This document shows, one piece after another, positions 8,799 through 32,000 of a stretch of 32,000 nucleotides of DNA. The position numbers and the translations under genes are program-made. The stretch comes from Candidatus Brocadiaceae baterium WH-1 (GTDB taxonomy: Bacteria; Planctomycetota; Brocadiia; Brocadiales; Brocadiaceae). How positions within the stretch are numbered: position 1 is the first letter of the stretch; each line of letters starts with the position of its first letter. The stretch covers positions 1,509,043-1,541,042 of the forward strand of contig CP129469.1 in assembly GCA_030583665.1 (NCBI GenBank), in the 5' to 3' direction. The notes under the pieces are model-generated. The model did not search any database. It had not been told where the DNA came from and worked only from the letters and a program-made list of their open reading frames with translations.

Positions 8799-9194
8799 TT
8801 ATCGTTTTGTCCACTGGAAGCTCTTTCTTGCTCCCTTTTGTCCGTATTTTTTGCGCTCTTTCATCCTGCTGTCCCTTGTCAAAAACCCCTGATCACGCAA
8901 ACTTTCGGTAAGGGAAGGGTTGGTTTTCGACAATGCACGCGCAATACCTAACGATATGGCTCCAGCCTGACCAGTGATACCACCGCCTCTTACATTTACC
9001 AATACATCGTATTCATCATGTAGTTCGGATGTTTTCAGAGGAGCACAAGCTATCCCTCGGTCACGTTCTATGGGAAAATATTTATCCATATCTACATTAT
9101 TTACCACAACCTTCCCGTTTCCCTTGATTAGTCTCACCCTTGCAATAGAAGTCTTCCGTCTTCCTGTACCCCAAATATATTGTTCTGCTGTCAT
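8799..9194 (-). CDS. rpsI: 30S ribosomal protein S9
   Basis: 131 aa. GGGITGQAGAISLGIARAL and the C-terminal basic tail KKYGQKGARKSFQWTKR. Follows rplM as in the conserved operon. Confidence 0.97.
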   Translation of the reverse strand: MTAEQYIWGTGRRKTSIARVRLIKGNGKVVVNNVDMDKYFPIERDRGIACAPLKTSELHDEYDVLVNVRGGGITGQAGAISLGIARALSKTNPSLTESLRDQGFLTRDSRMKERKKYGQKGARKSFQWTKR

Positions 9195-9209
9195 TATGTA
9201 TTCCTCTCA

Positions 9210-9644
9210 TTAATTACGAATAGTCAGTTCTTTTGGTTGCTGAGCCTGATGCGGATGTTCGGCGCCTGCATAAATTTTCAGTTTCTTTAACATAGCCTTA
9301 CCCAGCCTTGTTCTGGGCAGCATCCTTTTTACTGACCGGTTCAGTACTTTTTCAGGAGCTGTTTTAAGGGTTTCTCCAACCATCCGTTTCCGCAAACCAC
9401 TTTGATAGCCAGTTACATAAAAATGAATCTTTTCTTTCATCTTTTTCCCGGTAAGTTTTACCTTGTTTGCATTGGTAATAATAACAAAGTCTCCGACATC
9501 AACATGAGGGGTATATTCAGGTTTATGCTTACCCTGAAGAACCCTTGATACCGTTGTTAACATCCTGCCAAGGACCTTTTCATTGGCATCAACGATATAC
9601 CAATTCCTTTTTACATCCTCTTTCCTAGCCATAAAAGTTTTCAT
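9210..9644 (-). CDS. rplM: 50S ribosomal protein L13
   Basis: 144 aa. N-terminal KRNWYIVDA..KVLGR and GKHKPEYTPHVDVGDFVIITNA motifs. AAGGATG SD. Confidence 0.97.
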   Translation of the reverse strand: MKTFMARKEDVKRNWYIVDANEKVLGRMLTTVSRVLQGKHKPEYTPHVDVGDFVIITNANKVKLTGKKMKEKIHFYVTGYQSGLRKRMVGETLKTAPEKVLNRSVKRMLPRTRLGKAMLKKLKIYAGAEHPHQAQQPKELTIRN

Positions 9645-16744: not shown

Positions 16745-16873
16745 TTATGCTTCCTTCTTCCAGGTGAATAATATGAGAAAGAGAAGGGCAAGGGTAATAA
16801 TCATAATCGTTTTCGGGCTTATATCCGGTATTATTGAATTTTCCATAGCAAATGACAATAATTTGCCAATCAT
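16745..16873 (-). CDS. Small (42 aa) single-TM protein, unannotated in the ORF track
   Basis: MIGKLLSFAMENSIIPDISPKTIMIITLALLFLILFTWKKEA*. Strong SD (AAGGAGGTAGGAG) upstream of the ATG at 16873. Its TAA abuts the lpdA TTG start. Confidence 0.4.
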   Translation of the reverse strand: MIGKLLSFAMENSIIPDISPKTIMIITLALLFLILFTWKKEA

Positions 16874-16910: not shown

Positions 16911-16955
16911 GGTTTCAGATTGCGAATTGCGGATTACCATTCGCAATCTGAAATC
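16911..16955 (-). terminator. Long perfect hairpin 28 nt after the radical SAM stop; probable 3' boundary of the lipid operon
   Basis: TTTCAGATTGCGAAT (16913-16927) and ATTCGCAATCTGAAA (16939-16953) form a 15-bp perfect stem, extendable to 17, with an 11-nt loop. The downstream minus-strand sequence is A/T-rich but has no clean U-run. Confidence 0.45.
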
Positions 16956-16982
16956 GCCTTTGGTTCCGTATAACAAGTACGA

Positions 16983-18443
16983 TTACGTTGAAAAACTTCC
17001 CACGAGTGGTTTTTCGATGGTTACAGAGTTTGATTTGTACCAATCTTTGTAATAATCACCAGAATCATATAATTCTTTTAAATTCTGCAACACCTGTTCG
17101 AACACCTGTTTCCAATCAGAGCCAACCCTGAATGCAAACATGGAATTCCTTGGATTCTTTGTCGTTGCGATAGAATTCTTAAATCGTGACCTTAAATTAT
17201 TTCCGGCATAAATGTGATCATAAACATACTGCATGCCTTCAATAAAATCCTCAAGCGTCATATCAACAAATCTATGGACAACATGCGCAGTATCGTAGTA
17301 TTGCCAGTCAGCCGGATAGTTTTTTCTGAAAATCCTCTTTTCTGAATCCAGCCTTGCATAAAGCTGTGTCTTAGGGAAAGGACAATTAATGCCAAAGGTC
17401 AAAATGTCAATATTGTTTTCCAGCACAAAATCAGTCATTCTTTTAAAAGAATCTTTATCATCACCATCCGCTCCAAACACTACCGATCCCCAGACGACTA
17501 ATCCGGCATTGTGGATCTTTTGTATGCATTCATAGTAACTATCGGTGCCTAATTTAAGATTTACCTTTTTATTCATTTTCTCCAATACCGCTTCATTGGT
17601 CGACTCTATACCAATAAGCATGCCAAAGTTACCACTTTTGGCCATATAATCAAGGGTCTCCGGATCTTGAGAAATATTGAGGGCGGTAAACCCTAACCAA
17701 TCTTTATGTATGCCACGTTCCACCATGCCTTTAAAAAGATTTCGTGCCCTTTCGTTTGATTTTTTGCCATGTCCGTAAAAATTATCCTCTGCAAGCATTA
17801 ATCCTTTATAGTCCGTTGCCTCCATTTCTTCGATCACATCTTCGTAAGGCCTTTCCCTGAATTTTCTTCCCTGGAATGTAGGTACACTGCAAAAATCGCA
17901 ATAATTAGGGCACCCTTTCGTGGTTATAATAGAAGAAAATTTATAATTGTATTTTCTTTTCATAAGCTCTCTGTCAGGATATACCCGTTTCAGCAGACTC
18001 AGCGGAGGTAAACCTCCCTGGTATACCTTTTTTAATTTTCCTTCTTCAAAATCCTTTATAACCTGCGGCCATAGTTCTTCTGCTTCCCCTATAAAGACAG
18101 CATCAGCATATTGTGCTGCTTCTTCAGGCATAACAGAGGCATGTATCCCACCCATAATTACCGTCATACCTCTTTTCCTGCAAGCTTCTGCAATCATATA
18201 AGCCCTTGGAGATTGATAAGTTACTGCGGTAATACATACAAGGTCTACGGGTTTGAAGGTAAGTTCACCGTGATCATCTATCGCCAGTTCAATATTCTCG
18301 TCAATTACATCAAATTCCCAGTCACCTGGCGTAAGAGCAGCTATATAGGCAAGGTTTAAAGGCATTTGTACAATTACGGTAATGCTTTCCTCGCCGCACC
18401 TGCCTGGTGTATGTGGATTAATCAACATCATTTTTTTCGTCAT
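16983..18443 (-). CDS. B12-binding-domain radical SAM enzyme (class B)
   Basis: CxxxCxxC cluster motif TKGCPNYCDFCSVP. N-terminal Rossmann-like cobalamin-binding domain (VDLVCITAVTYQSPRAYMIAEACRKRGMTVIMGGIHAS). I moved the start to the ATG at 18443 (MTKKMMLINP): a GGAGG SD lies 9 nt upstream and ATGA overlaps the upstream stop. The ORF-track TTG at 18458 is less likely. Confidence 0.88.
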   Translation of the reverse strand: MTKKMMLINPHTPGRCGEESITVIVQMPLNLAYIAALTPGDWEFDVIDENIELAIDDHGELTFKPVDLVCITAVTYQSPRAYMIAEACRKRGMTVIMGGIHASVMPEEAAQYADAVFIGEAEELWPQVIKDFEEGKLKKVYQGGLPPLSLLKRVYPDRELMKRKYNYKFSSIITTKGCPNYCDFCSVPTFQGRKFRERPYEDVIEEMEATDYKGLMLAEDNFYGHGKKSNERARNLFKGMVERGIHKDWLGFTALNISQDPETLDYMAKSGNFGMLIGIESTNEAVLEKMNKKVNLKLGTDSYYECIQKIHNAGLVVWGSVVFGADGDDKDSFKRMTDFVLENNIDILTFGINCPFPKTQLYARLDSEKRIFRKNYPADWQYYDTAHVVHRFVDMTLEDFIEGMQYVYDHIYAGNNLRSRFKNSIATTKNPRNSMFAFRVGSDWKQVFEQVLQNLKELYDSGDYYKDWYKSNSVTIEKPLVGSFST

Positions 18444-19903
18444 AATATTAGCCTCCAATTCTTCATAATTAAATTAGCAGCACTCCAGCCTGAAGAGACC
18501 ACAGCAGCAATTCCAGGACCTGGCCTTGTCCAATGCCCAGCTAAATATAAATTCTCAATTGTTGTCTCATGCGGCGGCCTGTTATTCCACATTTGATTTA
18601 CTGTAACCTCCCAACCATAAGCAGCACCATTCGTATTTGATGTGTAACGCTCCAGGGTCTTTGGGGTAGCGGCTTCTTTTACTTCAATATACTCTTTCAG
18701 ACGGGGAACATATTTTTCTAATTGATTGATGGTATGGTCAGTCATGTGTTCTTTGAAAGCATGCCAGTTGGTGATGCCATGGTAAACGTCTTCGTTTACA
18801 GAAACAACTACAGAAACAATCTGTTTACCGGGAGGCGCAAGTTCAGGACATATCATCGTTGGAACGGAGATGTACATCCACTCTCCATCTGAAAATCCCC
18901 AATCAGAGGTTTTATGATAAAACCCTCTCTTTAATCTGCAAATATCTGCATCTCCTTTTAAGCCCAAATATAAAAGAAAAAAAGAACAACTACATTTCAT
19001 CGTCTGAATCTTTTGAAGAAACAATAGGTCTCCCTTGGCATCCAACAGTTCCAGAAAAGTTCTTCGTACGTCAATTGCTGAAACTACTAAATCAGACGAT
19101 ATCTCTTTACCATTTTTGAGGATAACGCCTTTCACCGCATTATTTTTTAATGGGATTTTTACCGCCTCGGATGATAACATAACGTGTCCATTAAAATCAA
19201 TAAATTTCTTAAAAATTGCATTGGCAAATGCTTGTGTGCCACCTGCCGGAAAATAGGCGCCGTCCTTGAGATAATTAACCATCATTTGGCACATAGCAAT
19301 GGCAGAGGCATTAGCAGGGGGGAGGCCTATATAACCCCATTGCCCGGAAAGTACTGTTTTGAGTTCTTCGTTGCTGAAAAAAGCATCAAGCATTTCACCA
19401 TAGGTTTGATTTTTATAGATATTGATAATTTGACTGTTTTCACTATTAAACGTGGCACGGTAAAGTCTTACAAAATCGTGAAAAAATTTCTTCATGGCAT
19501 GTTTTTCTGCCGGATAACGATCCTGTAAGCGGGCGATGTATTCGTCAAGATTAGCGGGGATCTCAATACTGAAACCAGGATAGATAAGGTTGTCCATCGG
19601 GTCAAGCAGATGGAAATCCATTTCAATCCCAAGCAGCTTAAAACAGCGGCCAACAATACTCCATTTTCCGCATCCCCCGATATGGTGAACCGCTGCATCA
19701 AAATAGAAACCTTTTCTTTTAAATGAAGTGCAGTAACCTCCGGGAATAGAATGTTGTTCAACAATAAGCACTCTTTTGCCACTTTGGGCAAGTAATGCAC
19801 CACAAACGAGGCCTGCTATACCTGCGCCAATTACAATTACATCATAAGAGGGATACAACAAATCATTCTTTGTTGATTGAATGAGCCTGTGGGAATGAAC
19901 CAT
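18440..19903 (-). CDS. Phytoene-desaturase (CrtI/CrtD)-family FAD-dependent oxidoreductase
   Basis: 487 aa. Dinucleotide fold YDVIVIGAGIAGLVCGALLAQSGKRVLIVEQHSIPGG. C-terminal LYLAGHWTRPGPGIAAVVSSG is typical of the CrtI family. Starts 3 nt after the KS-like stop. Confidence 0.82.
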   Translation of the reverse strand: MVHSHRLIQSTKNDLLYPSYDVIVIGAGIAGLVCGALLAQSGKRVLIVEQHSIPGGYCTSFKRKGFYFDAAVHHIGGCGKWSIVGRCFKLLGIEMDFHLLDPMDNLIYPGFSIEIPANLDEYIARLQDRYPAEKHAMKKFFHDFVRLYRATFNSENSQIINIYKNQTYGEMLDAFFSNEELKTVLSGQWGYIGLPPANASAIAMCQMMVNYLKDGAYFPAGGTQAFANAIFKKFIDFNGHVMLSSEAVKIPLKNNAVKGVILKNGKEISSDLVVSAIDVRRTFLELLDAKGDLLFLQKIQTMKCSCSFFLLYLGLKGDADICRLKRGFYHKTSDWGFSDGEWMYISVPTMICPELAPPGKQIVSVVVSVNEDVYHGITNWHAFKEHMTDHTINQLEKYVPRLKEYIEVKEAATPKTLERYTSNTNGAAYGWEVTVNQMWNNRPPHETTIENLYLAGHWTRPGPGIAAVVSSGWSAANLIMKNWRLIL

Positions 19904-19906
19904 GTG

Positions 19907-21148
19907 TTACTGTTTATATTTGGAGATAATCAAGGAAGAGTTATTACCTAATCTGGTGAAGGAATTTATCAACACATTTTTGACAGGTAAGGAAGTTTTT
20001 TCCGTTACAAAAGGCAAATCACATTTTTCATCATGCTCCTTATAGTTGATTATAGGTGGAACTGTATGTGTGTTGAGAGACATAACTGCTGCTATGGTTT
20101 GTAATGCGCCTGATGCATCAAGACATTCTCCTGTTGCAGACTTAATGGCAGTTACAGGAATTAGCTTTGCACGCATACCAAAAACCTCTTTAATAACCAT
20201 GGTTTCCATAGCATCGCCATATACACCGGAATACGCATTGGCAGAGATATACGAAATATCATGCAATGTCAGACCAGCATCTTCAATGGCTTCCAAGATC
20301 GACCTTTTGTTACCACCTATCTGATAGTCCTTTCTTATTGCCATTTCAGGATCAAAGGCAGTTCCGTAACCTTTTACTTCAGCATAGATATGTGCATTTC
20401 TCTTGAGTGCATCGTCCAGGGTTTCAAGAATAACCAACGCCGAAGCCTCACCTATAATTAGCCCATTGCGTCTTTTGTCAAAAGGGGCGCAAATTTCCAG
20501 TGTTCCATCTCTGCTTCCAGCCAGTATTTTAGCGTTATGTGAACCCCAGAAAATATCATGGGTCAATCCATGCACTCCACCTGCTACCACTGCCTTTACA
20601 CGTCCCATACGAAGGAAATCAGAAGCATAAATAATAGCATCGATACTGCTTGTGACACCATTTGATATGGTGGTATTAAGCCCGGTTGCCTTACAAAAAA
20701 TAGATGCACGGCTCGCCGGTGCATTTAATACGGTATTGGGAAAATCCATAGGGTTAACATAATTAGGTCCTTCACGAAGTGACTGGAAATCAAATGAACT
20801 GATGCTGTCTATGCTGCCATAAGTAGAACCGACAACTATACCTAATTCGTCTCCGCTATATATCGTATTGTCCAGATTGGCATCTTTCATAGCAAGGATT
20901 GTAGCGGATGATACGAGAAGGGAGGTTCTGTCGATATGCCGGATCCCTTTTGATCCAAGATAAACTTTAGCATCAAAATCTGAGATTTCCCCAGCCTGTT
21001 TGCAACGAAATTTACTCACATCAAATAAGGTAACAGGCTTTATACCTAAGACACCATCAGTTAAATTCTTCCAATAACTATCCTTGCCTGTTCCAATAGG
21101 CGAGATAACGGAAACACCCGTAATTACAATCCTTTTTCTTTCCATCAT
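19907..21148 (-). CDS. Beta-ketoacyl synthase homologue lacking the Cys-His-His catalytic triad (chain-length-factor-like / KS-beta-like)
   Basis: Full-length thiolase-fold KS that aligns with the adjacent FabF. TACAAG becomes NGVTSS (no Cys), YISAHGTGT becomes YISANAYSG (His to Asn), and IKSMIGHT becomes IKSATGEC (His to Glu). I prefer the start at ATGATG 21148 (MMERKRIVITGV, GAGG SD) over the ORF-track 21199, which has no SD. Confidence 0.8.
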   Translation of the reverse strand: MMERKRIVITGVSVISPIGTGKDSYWKNLTDGVLGIKPVTLFDVSKFRCKQAGEISDFDAKVYLGSKGIRHIDRTSLLVSSATILAMKDANLDNTIYSGDELGIVVGSTYGSIDSISSFDFQSLREGPNYVNPMDFPNTVLNAPASRASIFCKATGLNTTISNGVTSSIDAIIYASDFLRMGRVKAVVAGGVHGLTHDIFWGSHNAKILAGSRDGTLEICAPFDKRRNGLIIGEASALVILETLDDALKRNAHIYAEVKGYGTAFDPEMAIRKDYQIGGNKRSILEAIEDAGLTLHDISYISANAYSGVYGDAMETMVIKEVFGMRAKLIPVTAIKSATGECLDASGALQTIAAVMSLNTHTVPPIINYKEHDEKCDLPFVTEKTSLPVKNVLINSFTRLGNNSSLIISKYKQ

Positions 21149-21225
21149 TAACCTCAGACAGAAGGTGTAAAAAACACCCTTAATACCATTTTTATTCAAA
21201 ACTGGTCATAAATATTATAACAGAC

Positions 21226-22446
21226 TTACTCCGTAAATTTCTTAACGACCAGACAGCTATTATTTCCACCAAACGCATGAGCGTTATTGAGTGCAACAAC
21301 CACTCCTTGTCTTCTCATAACATTGGGTACATAATCCAGGTCACATTCCGGATCGGGCGTTTCGTAATTTATGGTAGGAGGAATAATTGCATTCTGGATA
21401 GCCAAAGCACAAGTAATAGCTTCAATAGCACTTGCGGCTCCCATTGTATGGCCAATCATGGATTTTATTGAGCTGATTGCCAGATGTGCAGGTTTTTCTC
21501 CAAACACCTTTTTGATAGAGATCGTCTCTGCTTTATCATTGGCAGGCGTTCCTGTACCATGAGCACTGATATACTGAACATCCTCAGGCTTTAGATTTGC
21601 GCTCTTAAGGGCCTTTTTCATTGCCGAAACCACACCTTCGCCGTCAGGATGGGGAATGGTAATATGATAGGCATCGCAGCTAAGGCCGTAACCAATAATC
21701 TCAGCATAGATATGTGCGTTCCTCTGTAATGCATGATCAAGTGATTCCAAAAGGAGAATTCCGGCACCTTCACCAACCATCATACCTTTTCTGTTTTTAT
21801 CAAACGGCTGACATATCTCCGGGGCAATAGCACCTAACCTTGCGAATCCTGTATATGCTACTTTCGAGAAAGGATCAGATCCCCCGGCAACCATCAGATC
21901 GACCCTTCCGAATTTAATTAAATCAAAGGCATAGCCTATCGCATAGTTCCCGGCTGCGCATGCGGTTGGAATAATTGTATTTGGTCCTTTAAATCCAAAT
22001 TCAATTGCGATGTTAGCAGGGATATTATTGCAGGGATGCATCAGAAAAAGATACGGATCAACCTTATCTTCACCCTCTTTGTGTCTGATGTAATTAACTT
22101 TTTCAAGAATCTGTATTTCTCCGGCAGTTGTCCCTACAGAAACCCCTATTCTTTCTAAATCAATTTTTTCCAGGTCAAGCTTTCCATCGTCAATGGCAAG
22201 TTTTGTAGCTGCTATTCCAAATTGTGATCCTTTACCAATTTGTTTGAGAACACCGTTCTTTCTATAATCATTGTAGTTGAAATTCTTAACCTCGCATCCT
22301 TTATGAACCTTATATTCTGAGGTATCAATGCACGTAACAATATCAACGCCGGATACGCCTGAAATGAGGGCGTTCCAGAAGGTGTCTTTCCCTGATCCTA
22401 TAGGGGTAATCATCCCTACGCCTGTTATAACAACGCGTTTATTCAT
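21226..22446 (-). CDS. fabF: Beta-ketoacyl-ACP synthase II, catalytically intact
   Basis: 406 aa. Active-site Cys in [14 protein letters not shown]. His in [15 protein letters not shown] and [16 protein letters not shown]-terminal [18 protein letters not shown]. Confidence 0.9.
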
Positions 22447-22483
22447 ACTACAAGTTAGTTCCTCAAAGTCTTCTTTAAAAAAA

Positions 22484-22540
22484 GGGGGTTCAGGGGGTTG
22501 TTGTAAAGCCGTTTAAATAAAATGAAAGTTCCTATACAAT
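22484..22540 (+). repeat. 57-nt repeat element, copy 2 (in the fabZ-fabF intergenic gap)
   Basis: GGGGGTTCAGGGGGTTGTTGTAAAGCCGTTTAAATAAAATGAAAGTTCCTATACAAT. About 88 percent identical to 10520-10576, in the same plus orientation, which is antisense to the operon. Confidence 0.75.
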
Positions 22541-22548
22541 ATAAATGA

Positions 22549-22998
22549 TTATATTAGTGTGCTTTTCTCCGCGATTCCAAATGTTAAAGTAGCTTTGGCT
22601 GCGGATTTTTCATCAACCTTTACTATTGCCTGTACGATAGCTCCCTTGGATACAATCTTTTCAACCGTTATTTCTATGTGAAGCCGATCGCCGGGAAAAA
22701 CGGGCTTTGTAAAGCGTGCGTTACCAATCGATGCCAGCAAGAAAACCGTATCGTTGCCGTTTTGCACGGCAAGGCTTTTCTTAAATAGGATAATGGATGC
22801 CTGGGCCATCGCTTCAATGATCAACACCCCAGGCATGATAGCAAAATCAGGAAAATGCCCGACAAAAACCGGTTCATTGCATGAAACGTTTTTTATACAA
22901 ATAATTCTTTTCCCTTCTTCATACTCCACGACTTTATCAATAAATATAAAGGGATATTTTTGCGGAAGTAGGGACCTGATTTCCTCAAAATGTATCAT
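22549..22998 (-). CDS. fabZ: 3-hydroxyacyl-ACP dehydratase FabZ
   Basis: 149 aa. LPQKYPFIFIDKV, catalytic GHFPDFAIMPGVLIIEAMAQ, hotdog fold. Confidence 0.9.
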   Translation of the reverse strand: MIHFEEIRSLLPQKYPFIFIDKVVEYEEGKRIICIKNVSCNEPVFVGHFPDFAIMPGVLIIEAMAQASIILFKKSLAVQNGNDTVFLLASIGNARFTKPVFPGDRLHIEITVEKIVSKGAIVQAIVKVDEKSAAKATLTFGIAEKSTLI

Positions 22999-23058
22999 CT
23001 CGGTAAACCTTTTTCTTTTTGCAGCATTCGAGTATTGTAAATCCTGCGGGTTGTATAG

Positions 23059-23086
23059 ATTGTAAGATCCGGATAAAACCTGTCAA
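23059..23086 (-). promoter_or_regulatory. Possible internal sigma70-type promoter between ACP and fabZ
   Basis: The minus strand reads TTGACA (23086-23081, abutting the ACP TGA), a 16-nt spacer, then TACAAT (23064-23059). Consensus match only. Confidence 0.3.
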
Positions 23087-23356
23087 TCAAGATGTTAATT
23101 TCCCGTTTTCTGCCAAAACAGATTTTGTCAGATCAATAGTAGCACTTAATGATGTAATATCAACAAGCTTTTCTTCAGGTATCTGCACCTTAAACTTCTT
23201 TTCAATAAGCGCAAGTATCTCAAGAGCTAAAAGGGAATCGATTTCAAGATCCTTAAAGAAATTAGCATCCCTTTTATTCCAGATTTCATTCTCGTCCAAC
23301 TCTGTAACCTCTGCAACAATTGCGGTTACACCTTTTTCAATCTCTTCAGCGTTCAA
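23087..23356 (-). CDS. Dedicated acyl carrier protein
   Basis: 89 aa. Phosphopantetheine site DLEIDSLLALE, preceded by NFFK. TTG start supported by a strong SD (AAGGAGG, 6-nt spacer). About 10 residues longer at the C-terminus than typical AcpP. Confidence 0.85.
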   Translation of the reverse strand: MNAEEIEKGVTAIVAEVTELDENEIWNKRDANFFKDLEIDSLLALEILALIEKKFKVQIPEEKLVDITSLSATIDLTKSVLAENGKLTS

Positions 23357-23435
23357 AATATTCCTCCTTTTGTAATAATACCCGAACAGATTATATGTAT
23401 TTCATCCAGACTGCAATTGAAAATAGGAATGAAAC

Positions 23436-23464
23436 ATGTTAGCAGACACAATTTACATTGTCAA
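23436..23464 (-). promoter_or_regulatory. Sigma70-type promoter (extended -10) for the ACP-led operon
   Basis: The minus strand reads TTGACA (23464-23459), a 17-nt spacer, then TGcTAACAT (-10 at 23441-23436), about 80 nt upstream of the ACP start. Confidence 0.5.
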
Positions 23465-23624: not shown

Positions 23625-24251
23625 TCATGAATTTTGTCGTTTTGCCCGCTTTAAAACCTTGCCTTCTCCTTTTTGTTCATGTTTTCTTGCCTTGTTAAGT
23701 TCTTTTAATGCTCTGTATACCTGATCCTCCAGCATGGTTTCGTACTGACATAATTCTTCCAGCTTATTTTTTATTTCAACTACCTTCCTGGATTTCAAAT
23801 ACGTTATTTCTTTTTCAGTCCTTTTTCTCACTCTAAAAAACCCTTGTTCATATTCTGAAACATCAAATGTTGCATATTCCATAATCTGGCTTTCAATTCT
23901 TAAGCACCTTTTCAACCGCCATATACCGGAGACAATACGGTCTACCATAATTAATTCAATCAGGTTGGAAGGTTTCAGTTCTTTCACAAATTTGTTTCTG
24001 ATTTCTTCAAGGTGCTCTTTGCTTTCACCTTCTATTACAATTTCATTACTAAGGATAAATTGCCCTGCATTGTATTCTTCTTTTGAACTTGTTAATTCAG
24101 GTGATATCCTGTTCTCTGTATTCGCTGTCTTTTCGTGTTCCGGTATCCTGTGTTGTTCAATTATGGTATTCATTATTTTGTCAATCTTTTCTTTACTTAC
24201 ATCGTCAGGGTTTTTTCCGCGTAACACACCTTCTTTCAAAATTGCAGACAT
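23625..24251 (-). CDS. Hypothetical coiled-coil protein
   Basis: The ORF-track frame is 228 aa. I prefer the ATG at 24251 (MSAILKEG, 208 aa) because AAGGAGG lies 7 nt upstream. Charged, helical C-terminal half. No motif I can assign. Confidence 0.5.
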   Translation of the reverse strand: MSAILKEGVLRGKNPDDVSKEKIDKIMNTIIEQHRIPEHEKTANTENRISPELTSSKEEYNAGQFILSNEIVIEGESKEHLEEIRNKFVKELKPSNLIELIMVDRIVSGIWRLKRCLRIESQIMEYATFDVSEYEQGFFRVRKRTEKEITYLKSRKVVEIKNKLEELCQYETMLEDQVYRALKELNKARKHEQKGEGKVLKRAKRQNS

Positions 24252-24507
24252 TTGCCCCCTCCTTTCTGCGATAGAATTGTGCAGGACTATTTTACACTCT
24301 TGCCGATGCATCCGAATTATGATACTTGCACATAATATCCTATAAAATAAGACGATTCAATAAATTATTTTATTAACAATAAAATACTTAAAAACTTTAA
24401 AACAATTGAAATAAACTGTTATAATGATATCTGAACAGGTATTAAAAAACGAACATATATTGTGAAACAAAACTGAAGCGATCCTGAATACTAAGAGGCA
24501 ATTTGCG

Positions 24508-25152
24508 GTGAGAATTACTGAAATATTCAAAAGCATACAAGGAGAAACATCATACTCAGGGAAACCCTGTACCTTCATACGTATTACAGGTTGTAACCTG
24601 CGATGTACCTATTGTGATACTTCCTACGCCTATGAGGAGGGATGTGAACTCTCTGTAAATTCCATCCTTGAAGATGTTGATCGTTTCGGGACAAAATTAA
24701 TTTGTATAACCGGCGGAGAACCTTTATCAAATGCGGACACACTATTCTTAATAAAAGAGTTGCTGAAAAAAAACTATACGGTACTCGTTGAGACAAACGG
24801 AAGTTACGATATTCGTATTCTACCTCCCGATGTTATAAAGATTATGGATATTAAGTGTCCGGGTAGCAATATGAGCCATTTCATGCATTGGCCAAATGTC
24901 AAACATCTTAAACGCCTTGATGAGGTTAAGTTTGTCTTAACATCAAGGAAAGACTATGACTGGGCAAAGGAGGTAATACAAAAATACCGTTTATCCAGAG
25001 TGACGAATGTATTAATCGGTACAGCCTGCCCTTCTGTTAATTCTGTTAATCCGGCATCCGTGGTTCAATGGATTCTCGAAGATAATCTTGACGTGAGATT
25101 TCAGTTACAAATACATAAACACATATGGGATCCGGAAACGAGAGGTGTTTAA
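24508..25152 (+). CDS. queE: 7-carboxy-7-deazaguanine synthase (radical SAM)
   Basis: 214 aa with a GTG start and AAGAGG SD. EIFKSIQGETSYSGKPCTFIRITGCNLRCTYCDT is the QueE signature with CxxxCxxC. Adjacent to queC. Confidence 0.9.
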   Translation: MRITEIFKSIQGETSYSGKPCTFIRITGCNLRCTYCDTSYAYEEGCELSVNSILEDVDRFGTKLICITGGEPLSNADTLFLIKELLKKNYTVLVETNGSYDIRILPPDVIKIMDIKCPGSNMSHFMHWPNVKHLKRLDEVKFVLTSRKDYDWAKEVIQKYRLSRVTNVLIGTACPSVNSVNPASVVQWILEDNLDVRFQLQIHKHIWDPETRGV

Positions 25153-25156
25153 TTTT

Positions 25157-25831
25157 ATGAAAGATTTAGCCATTGTGCTGGTTAGTGGCGGCATGGACAG
25201 TTGCGTAACGGCTGCAATTGCAAACTTAGAATATCAACTTGCATTTTTACATGTAAACTATGGTCAGCGTACAGAATCAAGGGAACTGAAGGCATTTAAT
25301 GATATTGCATCATACTATGATATTCCCGGAGAAAGGATTCTCATATCTACTATTGATTGCTTACGAAAAATTGGAGGTTCAAGTTTAACAGACCGGGATA
25401 TGGATGTGCAAAGCATAACGATGGATAGTGCCGAAATTCCTTCTTCTTACGTCCCTTTCCGGAATACCCTTTTTTTGACAATTGCCGTTGCCTGGGGTGA
25501 AGTTATTGGTGCAAGAAAAATATTTATTGGTGCTGTGGAACAGGATAGTCCGAACTATCCTGATTGCAGACCGGTTTATTATGAAGTTTTTAATGAATTG
25601 ATCCGTGTCGGAACAAAACCTGCAACTTTTATAGAGGTGGAGACACCCCTCATATCTTTGAATAAATCCGGTATTGTAAAAAAAGGGGTTTCTCTGAAGG
25701 CGCCTTTGCATTTAACCTGGTCATGTTATAAAAATACAGACAAAGCATGCGGCGTATGCCACAGTTGCTTCCAGCGCTTAAAAGCCTTTCAGGAAGCAGG
25801 TATGACAGACACCATTCCTTATTGCCGGTAG
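25157..25831 (+). CDS. queC: 7-cyano-7-deazaguanine synthase
   Basis: PP-loop VLVSGGMDSCV. C-terminal zinc Cys cluster SCYKNTDKACGVCHSCFQR. Start moved to the ATG at 25157 (MKDLAIV), which has a GAGGTG SD; the ORF-track GTG at 25145 overlaps the queE end. Confidence 0.9.
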   Translation: MKDLAIVLVSGGMDSCVTAAIANLEYQLAFLHVNYGQRTESRELKAFNDIASYYDIPGERILISTIDCLRKIGGSSLTDRDMDVQSITMDSAEIPSSYVPFRNTLFLTIAVAWGEVIGARKIFIGAVEQDSPNYPDCRPVYYEVFNELIRVGTKPATFIEVETPLISLNKSGIVKKGVSLKAPLHLTWSCYKNTDKACGVCHSCFQRLKAFQEAGMTDTIPYCR

Positions 25832-31759: not shown

Positions 31760-32000
31760 TTAGGCTTTCTTTGGTTTTGCTCTATGTTTTTTTGGCAGTA
31801 GCGGAATTAAACAACGCAAAGCCTTATTTACAGATTCCGAATCTGGGAAATACGCTCGAATATCTGGATCTAAAACAACTGCACCCTCTTTTGGCATCAC
31901 CTCCTTGGTGAGAGTTGTACCATCTGCCTTATGAATAGTGACCGTATACCCAGCTTGCATAGTTTTATAGTGCTTGCCACGCACTCCATCCGTAAAATCA
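31760..32000 (-). CDS. Small antitoxin-like protein (3' part; N-terminus beyond the window end)
   Basis: The ORF-track 74-aa frame stays open upstream to the window edge (..DFTDGVRGKHYKTMQ..). The DF..G.RGK.Y plus LDPDIRAYFPDSESVNKALRCLI pattern resembles small TA-system antitoxin-like proteins I recall. No partner is visible. Confidence 0.35.
   Translation of the reverse strand, partial: DFTDGVRGKHYKTMQAGYTVTIHKADGTTLTKEVMPKEGAVVLDPDIRAYFPDSESVNKALRCLIPLLPKKHRAKPKKA

What the first reader, a model, noticed from the sequence alone, without database searches (positions are those of the whole stretch)
16911..23464. Dedicated ACP-FabZ-FabF-dead KS-CrtI-like-B12 radical SAM operon: candidate pathway for a cyclised (ladderane-type) or otherwise non-canonical lipid
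Seen in sequence:
- Six co-directional genes sit behind a good promoter (TTGACA-N17-TGcTAACAT at 23464-23436) and end at a 15-17 bp hairpin (16911-16955).
- The last three genes are translationally coupled (a 3-nt gap, then an ATGA overlap).
- The set contains its own ACP, a dehydratase, one active KS and one triad-less KS, a phytoene-desaturase-family flavoprotein and a class B radical SAM enzyme.
- It has no FabD, FabG, FabI or thioesterase, so it is not the housekeeping fab operon.

Established knowledge:
- KS plus inactive-KS pairs define type II PKS and aryl-polyene systems.
- CrtI enzymes install conjugated double bonds in hydrocarbon chains.
- Radical SAM enzymes form C-C bonds and rings in lipid tails (archaeal GDGT ring synthases GrsA/GrsB, tetraether synthase Tes).

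Inference: the operon makes an ACP-bound polyunsaturated chain that is then desaturated or isomerised and radical-cyclised. This gene composition is what comparative genomics has put forward for ladderane lipid biosynthesis in anammox planctomycetes. That chemistry has no biochemically established enzymology, so this is the most likely undescribed system in the window.
Basis: partly seen in the sequence, partly recalled or inferred. Interest (0 to 1): 0.9.

Follow-up and report, generated by a model that had tools for sequence, protein, structure and literature searches.

The report
Known anammox ladderane-candidate gene cluster
This is the six-gene "Cluster I" that anammox bacteria are thought to use to build their ladder-shaped membrane lipids. 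It has been in the literature since 2009 and four of its proteins have solved structures, but its chemistry is still unproven, and the same gene block also occurs in soil bacteria that are not anammox bacteria.

Summary
Six co-directional minus-strand genes (ACP, FabZ, active KS, triad-less KS, CrtI-like flavoprotein, B12 radical SAM) span 23356-16983, with the stated gene junctions, a promoter-like site and a downstream hairpin.

The window comes from an anammox bacterium. Three of its proteins match Ca. Jettenia sp. AMX2 / Ca. Loosdrechtia sp. records exactly.

The block is the orthologue of Kuenenia KustE3603-3608, called "Cluster I". Rattray et al. proposed it for ladderane synthesis in 2009. 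It was expressed in E. coli in 2016 without any product. Structures exist for amxACP, amxFabZ and the FabF2/FabFmut heterodimer. It is therefore not an undescribed system. The novelty class is "already known", although the function remains unproven.

The same six-gene order, with orthologous proteins and a dead KS, occurs in non-anammox genomes: Blastocatellia and other Acidobacteriota, "delta proteobacterium" MAGs and a high-GC Planctomycetota MAG. A Myxococcales MAG carries a variant without the flavoprotein. The delta and Myxococcales MAGs have the block fused to orthologues of the Kuenenia kuste2803-2805 locus.

Interest is moderate to low as a discovery. The comparative lead is worth following.

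The parts
23436..23464 (-). sigma-70-like promoter match TTGACA-N17-(TG)cTAACAT upstream of the ACP gene
   Evidence: 10 of 12, with TG; sequence read. A consensus match only: 35 sites found against 24.5 expected in shuffles.
23087..23356 (-). amxACP, a dedicated acyl carrier protein (89 aa, TTG start, AGGAGG RBS, Ser41 in the DSL motif)
   Evidence: Pfam PP-binding. Below all housekeeping ACP cut-offs in NCBIfam. 149.6 bits to PDB 7auf, which PMC10139942 identifies as Kuenenia amxACP Kuste3603. Alignment.
23059..23086 (-). second, stronger promoter-like match TTGACA-N16-TACAAT directly after the ACP stop codon
   Evidence: 11 of 12. Function untested.
22549..22998 (-). amxFabZ, a 3-hydroxyacyl-ACP dehydratase (149 aa) carrying the anammox-type Ile69 that narrows the acyl tunnel
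   Evidence: 243 bits to PDB 8ayd and 202 bits to 7qv0_A. Ile69 in the AQASIILF motif is conserved in all Brocadiales loci. Short-chain preference is from PMC10139942.
21226..22446 (-). amxFabF2, the active ketosynthase (406 aa, Cys/His/His intact)
   Evidence: 829 bits to PDB 9s5h_B.
19907..21148 (-). amxFabFmut, a triad-less ketosynthase homologue acting as a chain-length-factor-like partner (413 aa from ATG 21148; 412 aa if from 21145)
   Evidence: Val/Asn/Glu at the Cys/His/His positions. 768 bits to PDB 9s5h_C. Called as 412 aa in L081.
18440..19903 (-). phytoene-desaturase-like (CrtI-family) FAD flavoprotein (487 aa); starts 3 nt after the FabFmut stop
   Evidence: Amino_oxidase and NAD_binding_8. 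crtI_fam 189.5 bits, below the 238.1 cut-off. Nearest structure is CrtI 4dgk at 103 bits. Junction.
16983..18443 (-). cobalamin-binding (class B) radical SAM enzyme (486 aa); its ATG overlaps the flavoprotein stop codon (ATGA)
   Evidence: B12-binding and Radical_SAM domains. CxxxCxxC is invariant. No close solved structure; the best is MgmA/QCMT 9ccb at 51 bits. Junction.
16913..16953 (-). perfect 15-bp stem with an 11-nt loop, about 30 nt after the rSAM stop; no U-tract. A possible terminator or transcript-end stabiliser.
   Evidence: z = -4.07. The arms occur only here in the window. Hairpins at the same position in several relatives.
16745..16873 (-). conserved 42-aa hydrophobic small ORF between the rSAM and the LpdA-like gene. 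May be co-transcribed with either; its membership of the cluster is uncertain.
   Evidence: Sequence. Called as a gene in L081. 68-85% identical at the same position across Brocadiaceae loci.

Best explanation
The block is the Ca. Jettenia/Loosdrechtia orthologue of the anammox "Cluster I" (Kuenenia KustE3603-3608). It is a dedicated, carrier-protein-bound, type II fatty-acid/polyketide-like module.

Shown by others on orthologues:
- amxFabF2 and the triad-less amxFabFmut form a KS/chain-length-factor-like heterodimer.
- The heterodimer decarboxylates malonyl-amxACP and so primes itself.
- It prefers amxACP, and it prefers C6-C8 acyl chains.
- amxFabZ dehydrates only short 3-hydroxyacyl-amxACPs (up to about C6-C8).

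Inferred:
- FabD, FabG and any enoyl reductase are borrowed from housekeeping FAS.
- The short enoyl- or polyenoyl-amxACP is the substrate of the CrtI-like flavoprotein (C-C desaturation, isomerisation or saturation) and of the B12 radical SAM enzyme (H-abstraction followed by C-C bond formation or methyl transfer).
- Fatty acid synthesis extends at the carboxyl end, so a module specialised for short chains acts on what becomes the omega end of the final lipid. That is where the ladderane rings sit.
- The module therefore most likely makes or initiates the non-canonical omega-terminal part of ladderane fatty acids. It would work together with the kuste2802-2805-type locus (PPTase, second B12-rSAM, second KS/dead-KS pair), to which it is physically fused in the delta and Myxococcales genomes.

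Identity as Cluster I is essentially certain. The ladderane role and the individual steps of the flavoprotein and the rSAM are unproven.
For: Identity:
- Exact protein matches to Ca. Jettenia sp. AMX2 / Ca. Loosdrechtia sp. records WKZ23314, WKZ23315 and WKZ23317 on a 3.46-Mb contig.
- 58 of the 80 related loci fetched carry all six genes in this order. 53 of the 58 are Brocadiales (Brocadia, Jettenia, Kuenenia, Scalindua, Anammoxibacter and others), with median identities of 65-88%.
- Top PDB hits are the anammox proteins: 7auf, 8ayd/7qv0, 9s5h_B and 9s5h_C.
- The dead-KS residues match the published Kuste3606 pattern exactly (PMC2649909 Table 2).
- Ile69 of amxFabZ is conserved.

Mechanism, from the literature:
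- Heterodimer formation, malonyl-ACP decarboxylation and the C6/C8 and amxACP preferences (bioRxiv 10.64898/2026.05.19.726425).
- amxFabZ short-chain preference (PMC10139942).

Linkage to the kuste2803-2805 locus:
- In L067, L068 and L079 the Cluster I genes are followed directly by two more B12-rSAMs, a KS, a dead KS and an enoyl-CoA hydratase.
- The best anammox matches of these genes are those of the ACPS-rSAM-KS-KS-OYE-ECH locus of a Brocadiaceae genome.

Tight coupling of the genes (overlaps or 3-nt gaps) is also seen in the Acidobacteria version.
Against: - No experiment links any of the six proteins to ladderanes. PMC10139942 and the 2026 preprint say so explicitly.
- Anaerobic expression of kuste3603-3608 in E. 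coli gave no new fatty acids, although all six proteins were detected (PMC4790861).
- The block is not confined to ladderane producers. This removes the exclusivity argument used in the literature.
- The rSAM scores 90.5 bits against a cut-off of 360 for the NCBIfam model named for ladderane-type lipid clusters, TIGR04072.
- Most characterised class B radical SAM enzymes are methyltransferases (PMC12931638), so ring formation is not the default expectation.
- The authors who characterised amxFabZ and the heterodimer favour a role in making the short linear part of the lipid, not the ladder.
Confidence: 0.55

Rival explanations
1. The enzymology is the same (self-priming KS/CLF module on a private ACP, then flavoprotein and B12-rSAM), but the product is not the ladderane skeleton. 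Instead it is another modified acyl chain or small lipid that anammox bacteria share with Acidobacteriota, Myxococcota and other Planctomycetota. The ladderane rings would be made by other loci.
For: - Orthologous six-gene blocks occur in non-anammox genomes with native GC content of 50-70%. Examples are Blastocatellia (L069; neighbouring gene is Blastocatellia-like), soil Acidobacteria (L083/L084 among glycoside hydrolase genes), Acidobacteriota L078, delta MAGs L067/L068 on contigs of 1.8 Mb and 381 kb, and Planctomycetota Bin8 L080.
- The dead-KS family from Acidobacteria has about 45 soil relatives (clusters at 90% identity). The anammox FabFmut proteins are its next nearest kin, at 37-42% identity.
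- Ladderanes are reported only from anammox bacteria (PMC9387917, PMC9902471).
- Expression in E. coli gave no ladderanes (PMC4790861).
Against: - The lipids of all carriers outside anammox are unknown, because they are uncultured MAGs.
- Brocadiales versions form their own clade and carry lineage-specific features: Ile69 in FabZ, and Val rather than Glu, Gly or Ala at the dead-KS Cys position. The product could therefore have diverged.
- The cluster is universally conserved in the Brocadiales loci and is highly expressed in Kuenenia, which fits a major membrane lipid.
Confidence: 0.28
2. The B12 radical SAM enzyme is a C-methyltransferase, as most class B members are, and the cluster makes methyl-branched acyl chains. 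The flavoprotein would create or remove the double bond involved.
For: - Apart from the sub-threshold TIGR04072 hit, the nearest named families and structures are mostly methyltransferases: HpnR, PhpK, MCR glutamine C-methyltransferase (TIGR04014 and PDB 9ccb), TsrM and TokK.
- Mid-chain methyl-branched fatty acids are reported from anammox bacteria. This is from my own knowledge; I could not confirm it in the library.
Against: - All these matches are far below the family cut-offs.
- Non-methylating relatives (BchE, HpnJ) score similarly.
- A private ACP plus a KS/CLF pair plus a short-chain FabZ is a heavy apparatus for a single methylation.
- The three tandem rSAM paralogues in the delta and Myxococcales clusters suggest several successive radical steps.
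Confidence: 0.1
3. A long ACP-bound polyunsaturated chain is built, further desaturated by the CrtI-like enzyme, and zipped into the ladder by a single radical cascade.
For: - The gene content (KS/CLF and dehydratase without an enoyl reductase, CrtI-like enzyme, rSAM) is compatible with polyene formation.
- This is pathway (a) of Rattray 2009.
Against: - amxFabZ and the heterodimer prefer chains up to C6-C8, not C16-C20 (PMC10139942; 2026 preprint).
- Kuste3607 has no CrtI activity, and no polyunsaturated fatty acids appeared on expression (PMC4790861).
- No polyunsaturated intermediates are seen in anammox biomass, and the isotope labelling does not fit (PMC10139942).
Confidence: 0.05
4. It is an ordinary or back-up fatty acid synthase operon, or an aryl-polyene or type II PKS pigment cluster.
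For: - FabZ just passes its equivalog cut-off, and FabF2 falls just below the fabF cut-off of 493.75 with 471.9 bits.
- KS/CLF pairs are typical of aryl-polyene and type II PKS systems.
Against: - There is no FabD, FabG, FabI or FabH in the operon.
- The ACP scores below every housekeeping ACP cut-off.
- Kuenenia has a separate canonical fab cluster, kustd1386-1391 (PMC4790861).
- The cluster has no cyclase, aromatase, aryl-starter, thioesterase or export genes.
- A B12-rSAM and a CrtI-like enzyme are not part of those systems.
Confidence: 0.02

Closest known systems
Anammox "Cluster I", Kuenenia stuttgartiensis KustE3603-3608 (Rattray 2009; Javidpour 2016; Dietl 2023; Granatino 2026 preprint)
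   Same: - Same six genes in the same order and on the same strand.
- 65-91% protein identity to Kuenenia hertensis and 72-96% to Loosdrechtia aerotolerans.
- Same dead-KS substitutions.
- Same Ile69 in FabZ.
- Top PDB hits are the Cluster I proteins.
   Different: Nothing of substance: this is another species' copy. Local details differ: the sequence of the downstream hairpin, and the presence of the upstream 228-aa gene, which Kuenenia lacks.
Type II polyketide synthase KS/CLF pairs, especially highly reducing ones (ishigamide Iga11/Iga12; actinorhodin ActI KS/CLF)
   Same: - An active KS lies next to a catalytically dead homologue.
- A heterodimer with decarboxylative priming has been shown for the B. 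fulgida orthologues (2026 preprint).
- PDB 6kxd (deposited as Ketosynthase; I take it to be Iga11, from my own knowledge) and 1tqy are among the hits.
   Different: - The dead subunit has Val, not the Gln of classical CLFs, at the Cys position (the Gln is from my own knowledge).
- The neighbours are a FabZ, a CrtI-like flavoprotein and a B12-rSAM rather than ketoreductase, cyclase or aromatase genes.
- The proteins are closer to FabF than to PKS ketosynthases.
Kuenenia kuste2802-2805-type locus (PPTase, B12-rSAM, FabF, dead FabB/F)
   Same: - It has a paralogous B12-rSAM, about 54% identical to the Cluster I rSAM (P0113).
- It has a second KS/dead-KS pair.
- In delta and Myxococcales MAGs the two loci form one contiguous cluster.
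   Different: - It has no ACP, FabZ or CrtI-like gene.
- Its dead KS has Phe at the Cys position.
- It adds an OYE-type oxidoreductase and an enoyl-CoA hydratase.
Class B (cobalamin) radical SAM enzymes acting on lipids or forming rings: HpnR/HpnP hopanoid methylases, HpnJ, BchE cyclase
   Same: An N-terminal B12-binding domain plus a CxxxCxxC radical SAM core, with weak family-level matches.
   Different: All scores are far below the family cut-offs (65-90 bits against 360-650). There is no solved close relative. The substrate is presumably ACP-bound acyl rather than isoprenoid or tetrapyrrole.
"Ladderane-type" clusters outside anammox: Desulfotalea, Geobacter and Pelobacter (Rattray 2009), and antiSMASH "ladderane" BGCs in many phyla (PMC9902471)
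   Same: Earlier reports already noted that FAS-like clusters with rSAM and phytoene-desaturase-like genes exist outside anammox bacteria.
   Different: Those reports did not show colinear orthologues of all six Cluster I genes. Here the full block, with an orthologous dead KS and ACP, is shown in Acidobacteriota, delta MAGs and a non-Brocadiales Planctomycetota MAG.

Membership tests
Anammox Cluster I (KustE3603-3608 orthologue group) | Colinear ACP-FabZ-FabF2-dead FabF-CrtI-like-B12 rSAM genes on one strand | tested here: met
   The same order is found in 53 Brocadiales loci.
Anammox Cluster I (KustE3603-3608 orthologue group) | The proteins are orthologues of the characterised amxACP, amxFabZ, amxFabF2 and amxFabFmut | tested here: met
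   Top PDB hits are 7auf (149.6 bits), 8ayd (243 bits), 9s5h_B (829 bits) and 9s5h_C (768 bits), each far above the next hit.
Anammox Cluster I (KustE3603-3608 orthologue group) | Dead KS with Val/Asn/Glu in place of Cys/His/His; FabZ with tunnel-blocking Ile69 | tested here: met
   compared with PMC2649909 Table 2 and PMC10139942.
Anammox Cluster I (KustE3603-3608 orthologue group) | The host is an anammox (Brocadiales) bacterium | tested here: met
   Exact matches to Ca. Jettenia sp. AMX2 / Ca. Loosdrechtia sp. proteins. The rSAM tree places the window within Brocadiaceae.
Anammox Cluster I (KustE3603-3608 orthologue group) | The cluster is exclusive to ladderane producers (a literature claim used as an argument for its function) | tested here: not met
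   Six-gene blocks occur in Blastocatellia, other Acidobacteriota, delta MAGs and Planctomycetota Bin8. This fails as a property of the gene family, not of this locus.
Anammox Cluster I (KustE3603-3608 orthologue group) | Produces ladderane lipids | not testable with these tools
   No experimental link exists in the literature (PMC10139942; 2026 preprint). Heterologous expression was negative (PMC4790861).
Type II PKS-style KS/CLF heterodimer | An active KS adjacent to a homologue that lacks the catalytic Cys | tested here: met
Type II PKS-style KS/CLF heterodimer | Gln at the CLF position equivalent to the KS Cys (classical CLF) | tested here: not met
   Val in the window; Glu, Ala, Gly or Leu in other lineages. 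The classical Gln is from my own knowledge.
Type II PKS-style KS/CLF heterodimer | Physical heterodimer with decarboxylative priming | not testable with these tools
   Shown for B. fulgida orthologues in bioRxiv 10.64898/2026.05.19.726425. The window proteins score 829 and 768 bits to those chains.
NCBIfam TIGR04072 rSAM_ladder_B12 (lipid biosynthesis B12-binding/radical SAM protein) | Score at or above the curated cut-off of 360 bits | tested here: not met
   90.5 bits. The Cluster I rSAM is a different subfamily from the one that model describes.
Class B (cobalamin-binding) radical SAM superfamily | N-terminal B12-binding domain plus a CxxxCxxC radical SAM core | tested here: met
   PF02310 at 40.8 bits (cut-off 32.1) and PF04055 at 55.7 bits (cut-off 29.5). 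C178, C182 and C185 are invariant.
CrtI phytoene desaturase family (TIGR02734) | Score at or above the curated cut-off of 238.1 bits; phytoene desaturase activity | tested here: not met
   189.5 bits. Kuste3607 did not replace CrtI in vivo (PMC4790861). It is a member of the wider Amino_oxidase/FAD fold only.
Housekeeping FAS II operon | FabD, FabG, FabI or FabH present; ACP and FabF pass their equivalog cut-offs | tested here: not met
   None of these genes is in the window. The ACP scores 49.8 bits against a cut-off of 70.45, and FabF2 scores 471.9 bits against 493.75.

The most novel reading that the evidence does not exclude
Cluster I is not an anammox invention. It is the anammox copy of a pathway found in several phyla: private ACP, self-priming KS/CLF, short-chain FabZ, CrtI-like flavoprotein, and one to four B12 radical SAM enzymes. 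The pathway builds a still-unknown, radically modified acyl chain.

In the delta and Myxococcales MAGs the whole pathway (Cluster I plus the kuste2803-2805-type genes plus a third rSAM) sits in one cluster of about 13-15 kb. On the Blastocatellia contig the Cluster I block and a KS/dead-KS plus two-rSAM set lie about 18 kb apart.

Two readings follow. Either cyclised or strained ladderane-like lipids exist unnoticed in soil bacteria, or ladderanes are a late elaboration of a more widespread unknown lipid. In either case these compact clusters would offer a new, possibly more tractable, route to the enzymology.
Probability: 0.3. Interest if true: 0.7.

Novelty: already known. Interest (0 to 1): 0.35.

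Why it matters
How cells make ladderanes, chains of fused cyclobutane rings, is a long-standing open problem in lipid biochemistry, and this cluster is the field's main suspect. Finding it again in one more anammox genome adds nothing new.

Two comparative results may matter:
- The claim that the cluster is unique to ladderane producers, which is one of the two main arguments for its role, does not hold at the level of colinear orthologues.
- In other phyla Cluster I is physically joined to the kuste2803-2805-type genes and to extra B12-rSAM paralogues. This suggests that reconstitution attempts using kuste3603-3608 alone were incomplete.

The non-anammox clusters also bring their own FabG and, in Acidobacteriota, FabH. 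That gives more self-contained gene sets for heterologous expression.

Tried and rejected
- **Misbinning of the Blastocatellia contig (L069/L066).** I suspected it was a misbinned Brocadiales contig, because it has 50% GC and its ACP is 77% identical to the window's. Rejected: the aminotransferase one gene upstream has only Blastocatellia/Acidobacteriota named relatives at 74-100% identity.
- **The hairpin as a repeated element.** Its arms occur only at this site in the window and only in the identical contig L081 among 81 loci. A 2-mismatch hit at 31828 shows no significant structure.
- **Clues to the rSAM function from solved structures.** The best hit is MgmA/QCMT 9ccb at 51 bits, over the radical SAM core only. 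This is uninformative.
- **Support for the methyl-branched fatty acid rival.** I found nothing usable in the library, so that point rests on memory.
- **Structure prediction and fold search.** Not run. Pfam and PDB sequence matches already settle the folds, and no close functional template exists for the two uncharacterised enzymes.
- **Phage, plasmid and E. coli collections.** Not searched, as they are irrelevant here.
- **Limits of the genome scan.** The single genome-contig scan kept only the best 80 of 185 matching stretches. The count of non-anammox carriers is therefore a lower bound, and I could not test those genomes for hydrazine synthase.

Full report
**What is in the sequence**

Six ORFs lie head to tail on the minus strand between 23356 and 16983. 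Pfam and NCBIfam assign them as follows.

| Gene | Coordinates | Assignment |
|---|---|---|
| ACP | 23087-23356 | PP-binding; below every housekeeping ACP cut-off |
| FabZ | 22549-22998 | 155.9 bits against the 155.15 cut-off |
| FabF-like KS | 21226-22446 | 471.9 bits against the 493.75 cut-off |
| Second KS homologue | 19907-21148 | 310 bits to fabF |
| CrtI-family flavoprotein | 18440-19903 | crtI_fam 189.5 bits against 238.1 |
| B12-binding radical SAM | 16983-18443 | best named family is TIGR04072 "rSAM_ladder_B12", only 90.5 bits against 360 |

In the second KS the pattern is Val/Asn/Tyr/Gly/Lys/Glu/Gln/Arg. This is residue for residue the pattern Rattray et al. tabulated for Kuste3606 (PMC2649909). 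The rSAM has C178-x3-C182-x2-C185.

TAAcacATG joins the dead KS and the flavoprotein, and ATGA joins the flavoprotein and the rSAM. The mechanical ORF starts for the dead KS (TTG 21199) and the rSAM (TTG 18458) are probably too early. ATG 21148/21145 and ATG 18443 fit the ribosome-binding sites and the homologue lengths.

**Signals**

The promoter-like site at 23464-23436 exists (10 of 12 with TG). The region is AT-rich, however, and yields 35 such matches against 24.5 +/- 5.8 in shuffles. The best match (11 of 12) is at 23086-23059, just after the ACP stop codon.

The downstream hairpin is a perfect 15-bp stem at 16913-16953 (z = -4.07) without a U-tract. Strong hairpins sit right after the rSAM stop in several relatives: a Brocadia MAG, Loosdrechtia aerotolerans, Jettenia ecosi, Kuenenia hertensis and Anammoxibacter. 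None was seen within 140 nt in Brocadia pituitae. The position is conserved but the sequence is not. So the element is probably functional at the RNA level, but whether it terminates transcription is untested.

On the same strand there follow a conserved 42-aa ORF, an LpdA-like gene and a TPP enzyme.

**Where it comes from**

The rSAM, the flavoprotein and FabF2 are identical to proteins of "Candidatus Jettenia sp. AMX2" / "Candidatus Loosdrechtia sp." (WKZ23314, WKZ23315, WKZ23317; contig of 3.46 Mb).

A scan of one genome per species returned 80 loci. Of these, 58 have all six genes in the same order, and 53 of the 58 are Brocadiales.

**What it is**

It is the orthologue of Kuenenia KustE3603-3608, which the literature calls "Cluster I".

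- The top PDB hits are the deposited anammox proteins: amxACP 7auf, amxFabZ 8ayd/7qv0, and both chains of the FabF heterodimer 9s5h.
- Rattray et al. 2009 proposed this cluster for ladderane synthesis.
- Javidpour et al. 2016 expressed kuste3603-3608 in E. coli anaerobically. They detected all six proteins and saw no change in fatty acids. They also showed that Kuste3607 cannot replace CrtI.
- Dietl et al. 2023 solved amxFabZ and found that it prefers chains of up to C6-C8.
- A 2026 preprint shows that FabF2 and FabFmut form a KS/CLF-like heterodimer. It decarboxylates malonyl-amxACP and favours C6/C8 chains and amxACP.
- A 2026 review still lists the ring-forming enzyme as unknown.

Its polyene-then-cascade mechanism is the least supported of the published proposals.

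1. *The six-gene block is not confined to anammox bacteria.*
   - tblastn of the six window proteins finds all six, in the same order, in two "delta proteobacterium" MAGs (L067 and L068; 69% GC; contigs of 1.8 Mb and 381 kb), a Blastocatellia contig (L069), an Acidobacteriota MAG (L078) and a 70%-GC Planctomycetota MAG (L080).
   - Protein identities are 36-77%.
   - A Myxococcales MAG (L079) has ACP, FabZ, FabF2, a degenerate dead KS and the rSAMs, but no flavoprotein.
   - A soil Acidobacteria contig family (L083/L084, protein P0098) shows ACP-FabZ-KS-dead KS-flavoprotein-rSAM-FabG with FabH alongside, set among glycoside hydrolase genes.
   - Cluster GC equals flank GC in each case.
   - The gene next to the Blastocatellia cluster has only Blastocatellia/Acidobacteriota named relatives.
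   - Every one of these second KS genes lacks the catalytic triad.
   - A search from the Acidobacteria dead KS finds about 45 soil relatives (clusters at 90% identity). The next nearest family is the anammox FabFmut proteins (37-42%), and only after that come ordinary KS at about 30%.
   - In a neighbour-joining tree the Brocadiales rSAMs form one clade, with the non-anammox ones outside it.
   - The anammox-type Ile69 of FabZ is replaced by Gly or Ala in most non-anammox versions.

2. *Cluster I is fused to a second anammox locus in other phyla.*
   - In the delta and Myxococcales MAGs, Cluster I is followed directly by two more B12-rSAM paralogues, a second KS/dead-KS pair and an enoyl-CoA hydratase.
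   - The nearest anammox relatives of the third rSAM, the KS pair and the hydratase are the genes of a separate Brocadiaceae locus, ACPS-rSAM-KS-KS-OYE-ECH (L082). By gene content this is the kuste2802-2805 cluster.
   - The middle rSAM has a stand-alone orthologue in basal Brocadiales (L070-L077).
   - Gene fusion into one cluster in other phyla is comparative evidence that the two anammox loci serve one pathway.

**How it most likely works**

Shown on orthologues: a private ACP; a self-priming KS/CLF heterodimer; a dehydratase limited to short chains.

Inferred: malonyl loading, ketoreduction and any enoyl reduction come from housekeeping enzymes. The non-anammox clusters carry their own FabG, which supports the need for ketoreduction. 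The short enoyl- or polyenoyl-ACP is then handled by the flavoprotein and the B12-rSAM.

Chain growth is at the carboxyl end, so enzymes specialised for short chains work on what becomes the omega end. That is where the ladder sits. I therefore favour a role in building or initiating the ring-bearing end of the lipid, rather than the linear C6-C8 spacer favoured by the authors of the structural papers. This step is my inference and is unproven.

I put about 0.55 on involvement in ladderane synthesis. I put about 0.28 on a different product shared with the non-anammox carriers, and about 0.1 on the rSAM being a plain C-methyltransferase.

**Verdict**

The novelty class is "already known". The residual interest lies in the comparative result. 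It weakens the exclusivity argument, links two anammox loci, and points to compact clusters in other phyla as new experimental entry points.

Noticed in passing
window 16745-16873 (-): A 42-aa hydrophobic small ORF (MIGKLLSFAMENSIIPDISPKTIMIITLALLFLILFTWKKEA) with an AGGAGG RBS. Its stop codon abuts the TTG start of the LpdA-like gene. It is 68-85% identical at the same position in about 40 Brocadiaceae loci, including Kuenenia, and absent from Scalindua loci.
   Followed up: partly
window 23059-23086 (-): The best sigma-70-like match of the region (TTGACA-16-TACAAT, 11 of 12) lies directly after the ACP stop codon, ahead of FabZ. The ACP may therefore be transcribed separately from the other five genes.
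   Followed up: no
window 23625-24311 (-): A 228-aa protein with no Pfam match lies just upstream of the cluster's promoter region. It is syntenic (43-56% identity) in Brocadia, Jettenia and Loosdrechtia loci but missing in Kuenenia and Scalindua.
   Followed up: partly
window 16913-16953, and L001, L017, L020, L028 just after the rSAM stop: Several Brocadiaceae have a strong hairpin after the rSAM gene. Four of them share the stem AAGGCACAUCAA..., whereas the window has an unrelated stem, UUUCAGAUUGCGAAU. The position is conserved and the sequence has been replaced.
   Followed up: partly
window 18440-19903 (-): The CrtI-like flavoprotein is the least conserved of the six proteins within Brocadiales: median 65% identity to the window, against 71-88% for the other five.
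   Followed up: no
L067 5300-19800; L068 5290-19923; L079 6886-17900: In the delta and Myxococcales MAGs the Cluster I genes are followed by two more B12-rSAM paralogues, a second KS/dead-KS pair (Phe at the Cys position, like Kuste2805) and an enoyl-CoA hydratase. L067 and L068 also add an SDR and a fourth B12-rSAM, with a TetR regulator (scanned in L068) and another KS upstream. L079 lacks the flavoprotein and has an acyl-CoA dehydrogenase upstream.
   Followed up: partly
L070-L077 (basal Brocadiales MAGs): A stand-alone B12-rSAM paralogue, 58-61% identical to the window rSAM, groups with the middle rSAM of the delta-type clusters. None of the other five genes is nearby. Its neighbourhood was not examined.
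   Followed up: no
L054 9998-11449 (Ca. Anammoxibacter OFTM134): This genome has a second copy of the Cluster I-type rSAM (75% identity) on another contig, without the other five genes.
   Followed up: no
L066 5127-11461 (Blastocatellia contig; its rSAM match lies about 18 kb downstream of the Cluster I rSAM in L069): The same contig carries a KS, a dead KS and two more B12-rSAMs. One of these is 63% identical to the window rSAM, and one is closest to the kuste2803 type. A Ser/Thr kinase-TPR gene lies next to them.
   Followed up: partly
window 24508-25831 (+) and 8799-9644 (-): Ordinary housekeeping neighbours: a QueE-like radical SAM and QueC upstream, and rpsI and rplM further downstream. 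The window also holds hemA, a cytochrome c assembly gene, a CusB/OEP efflux pair and a BlaR/BlaI-like pair. None of them is lipid-related.
   Followed up: yes
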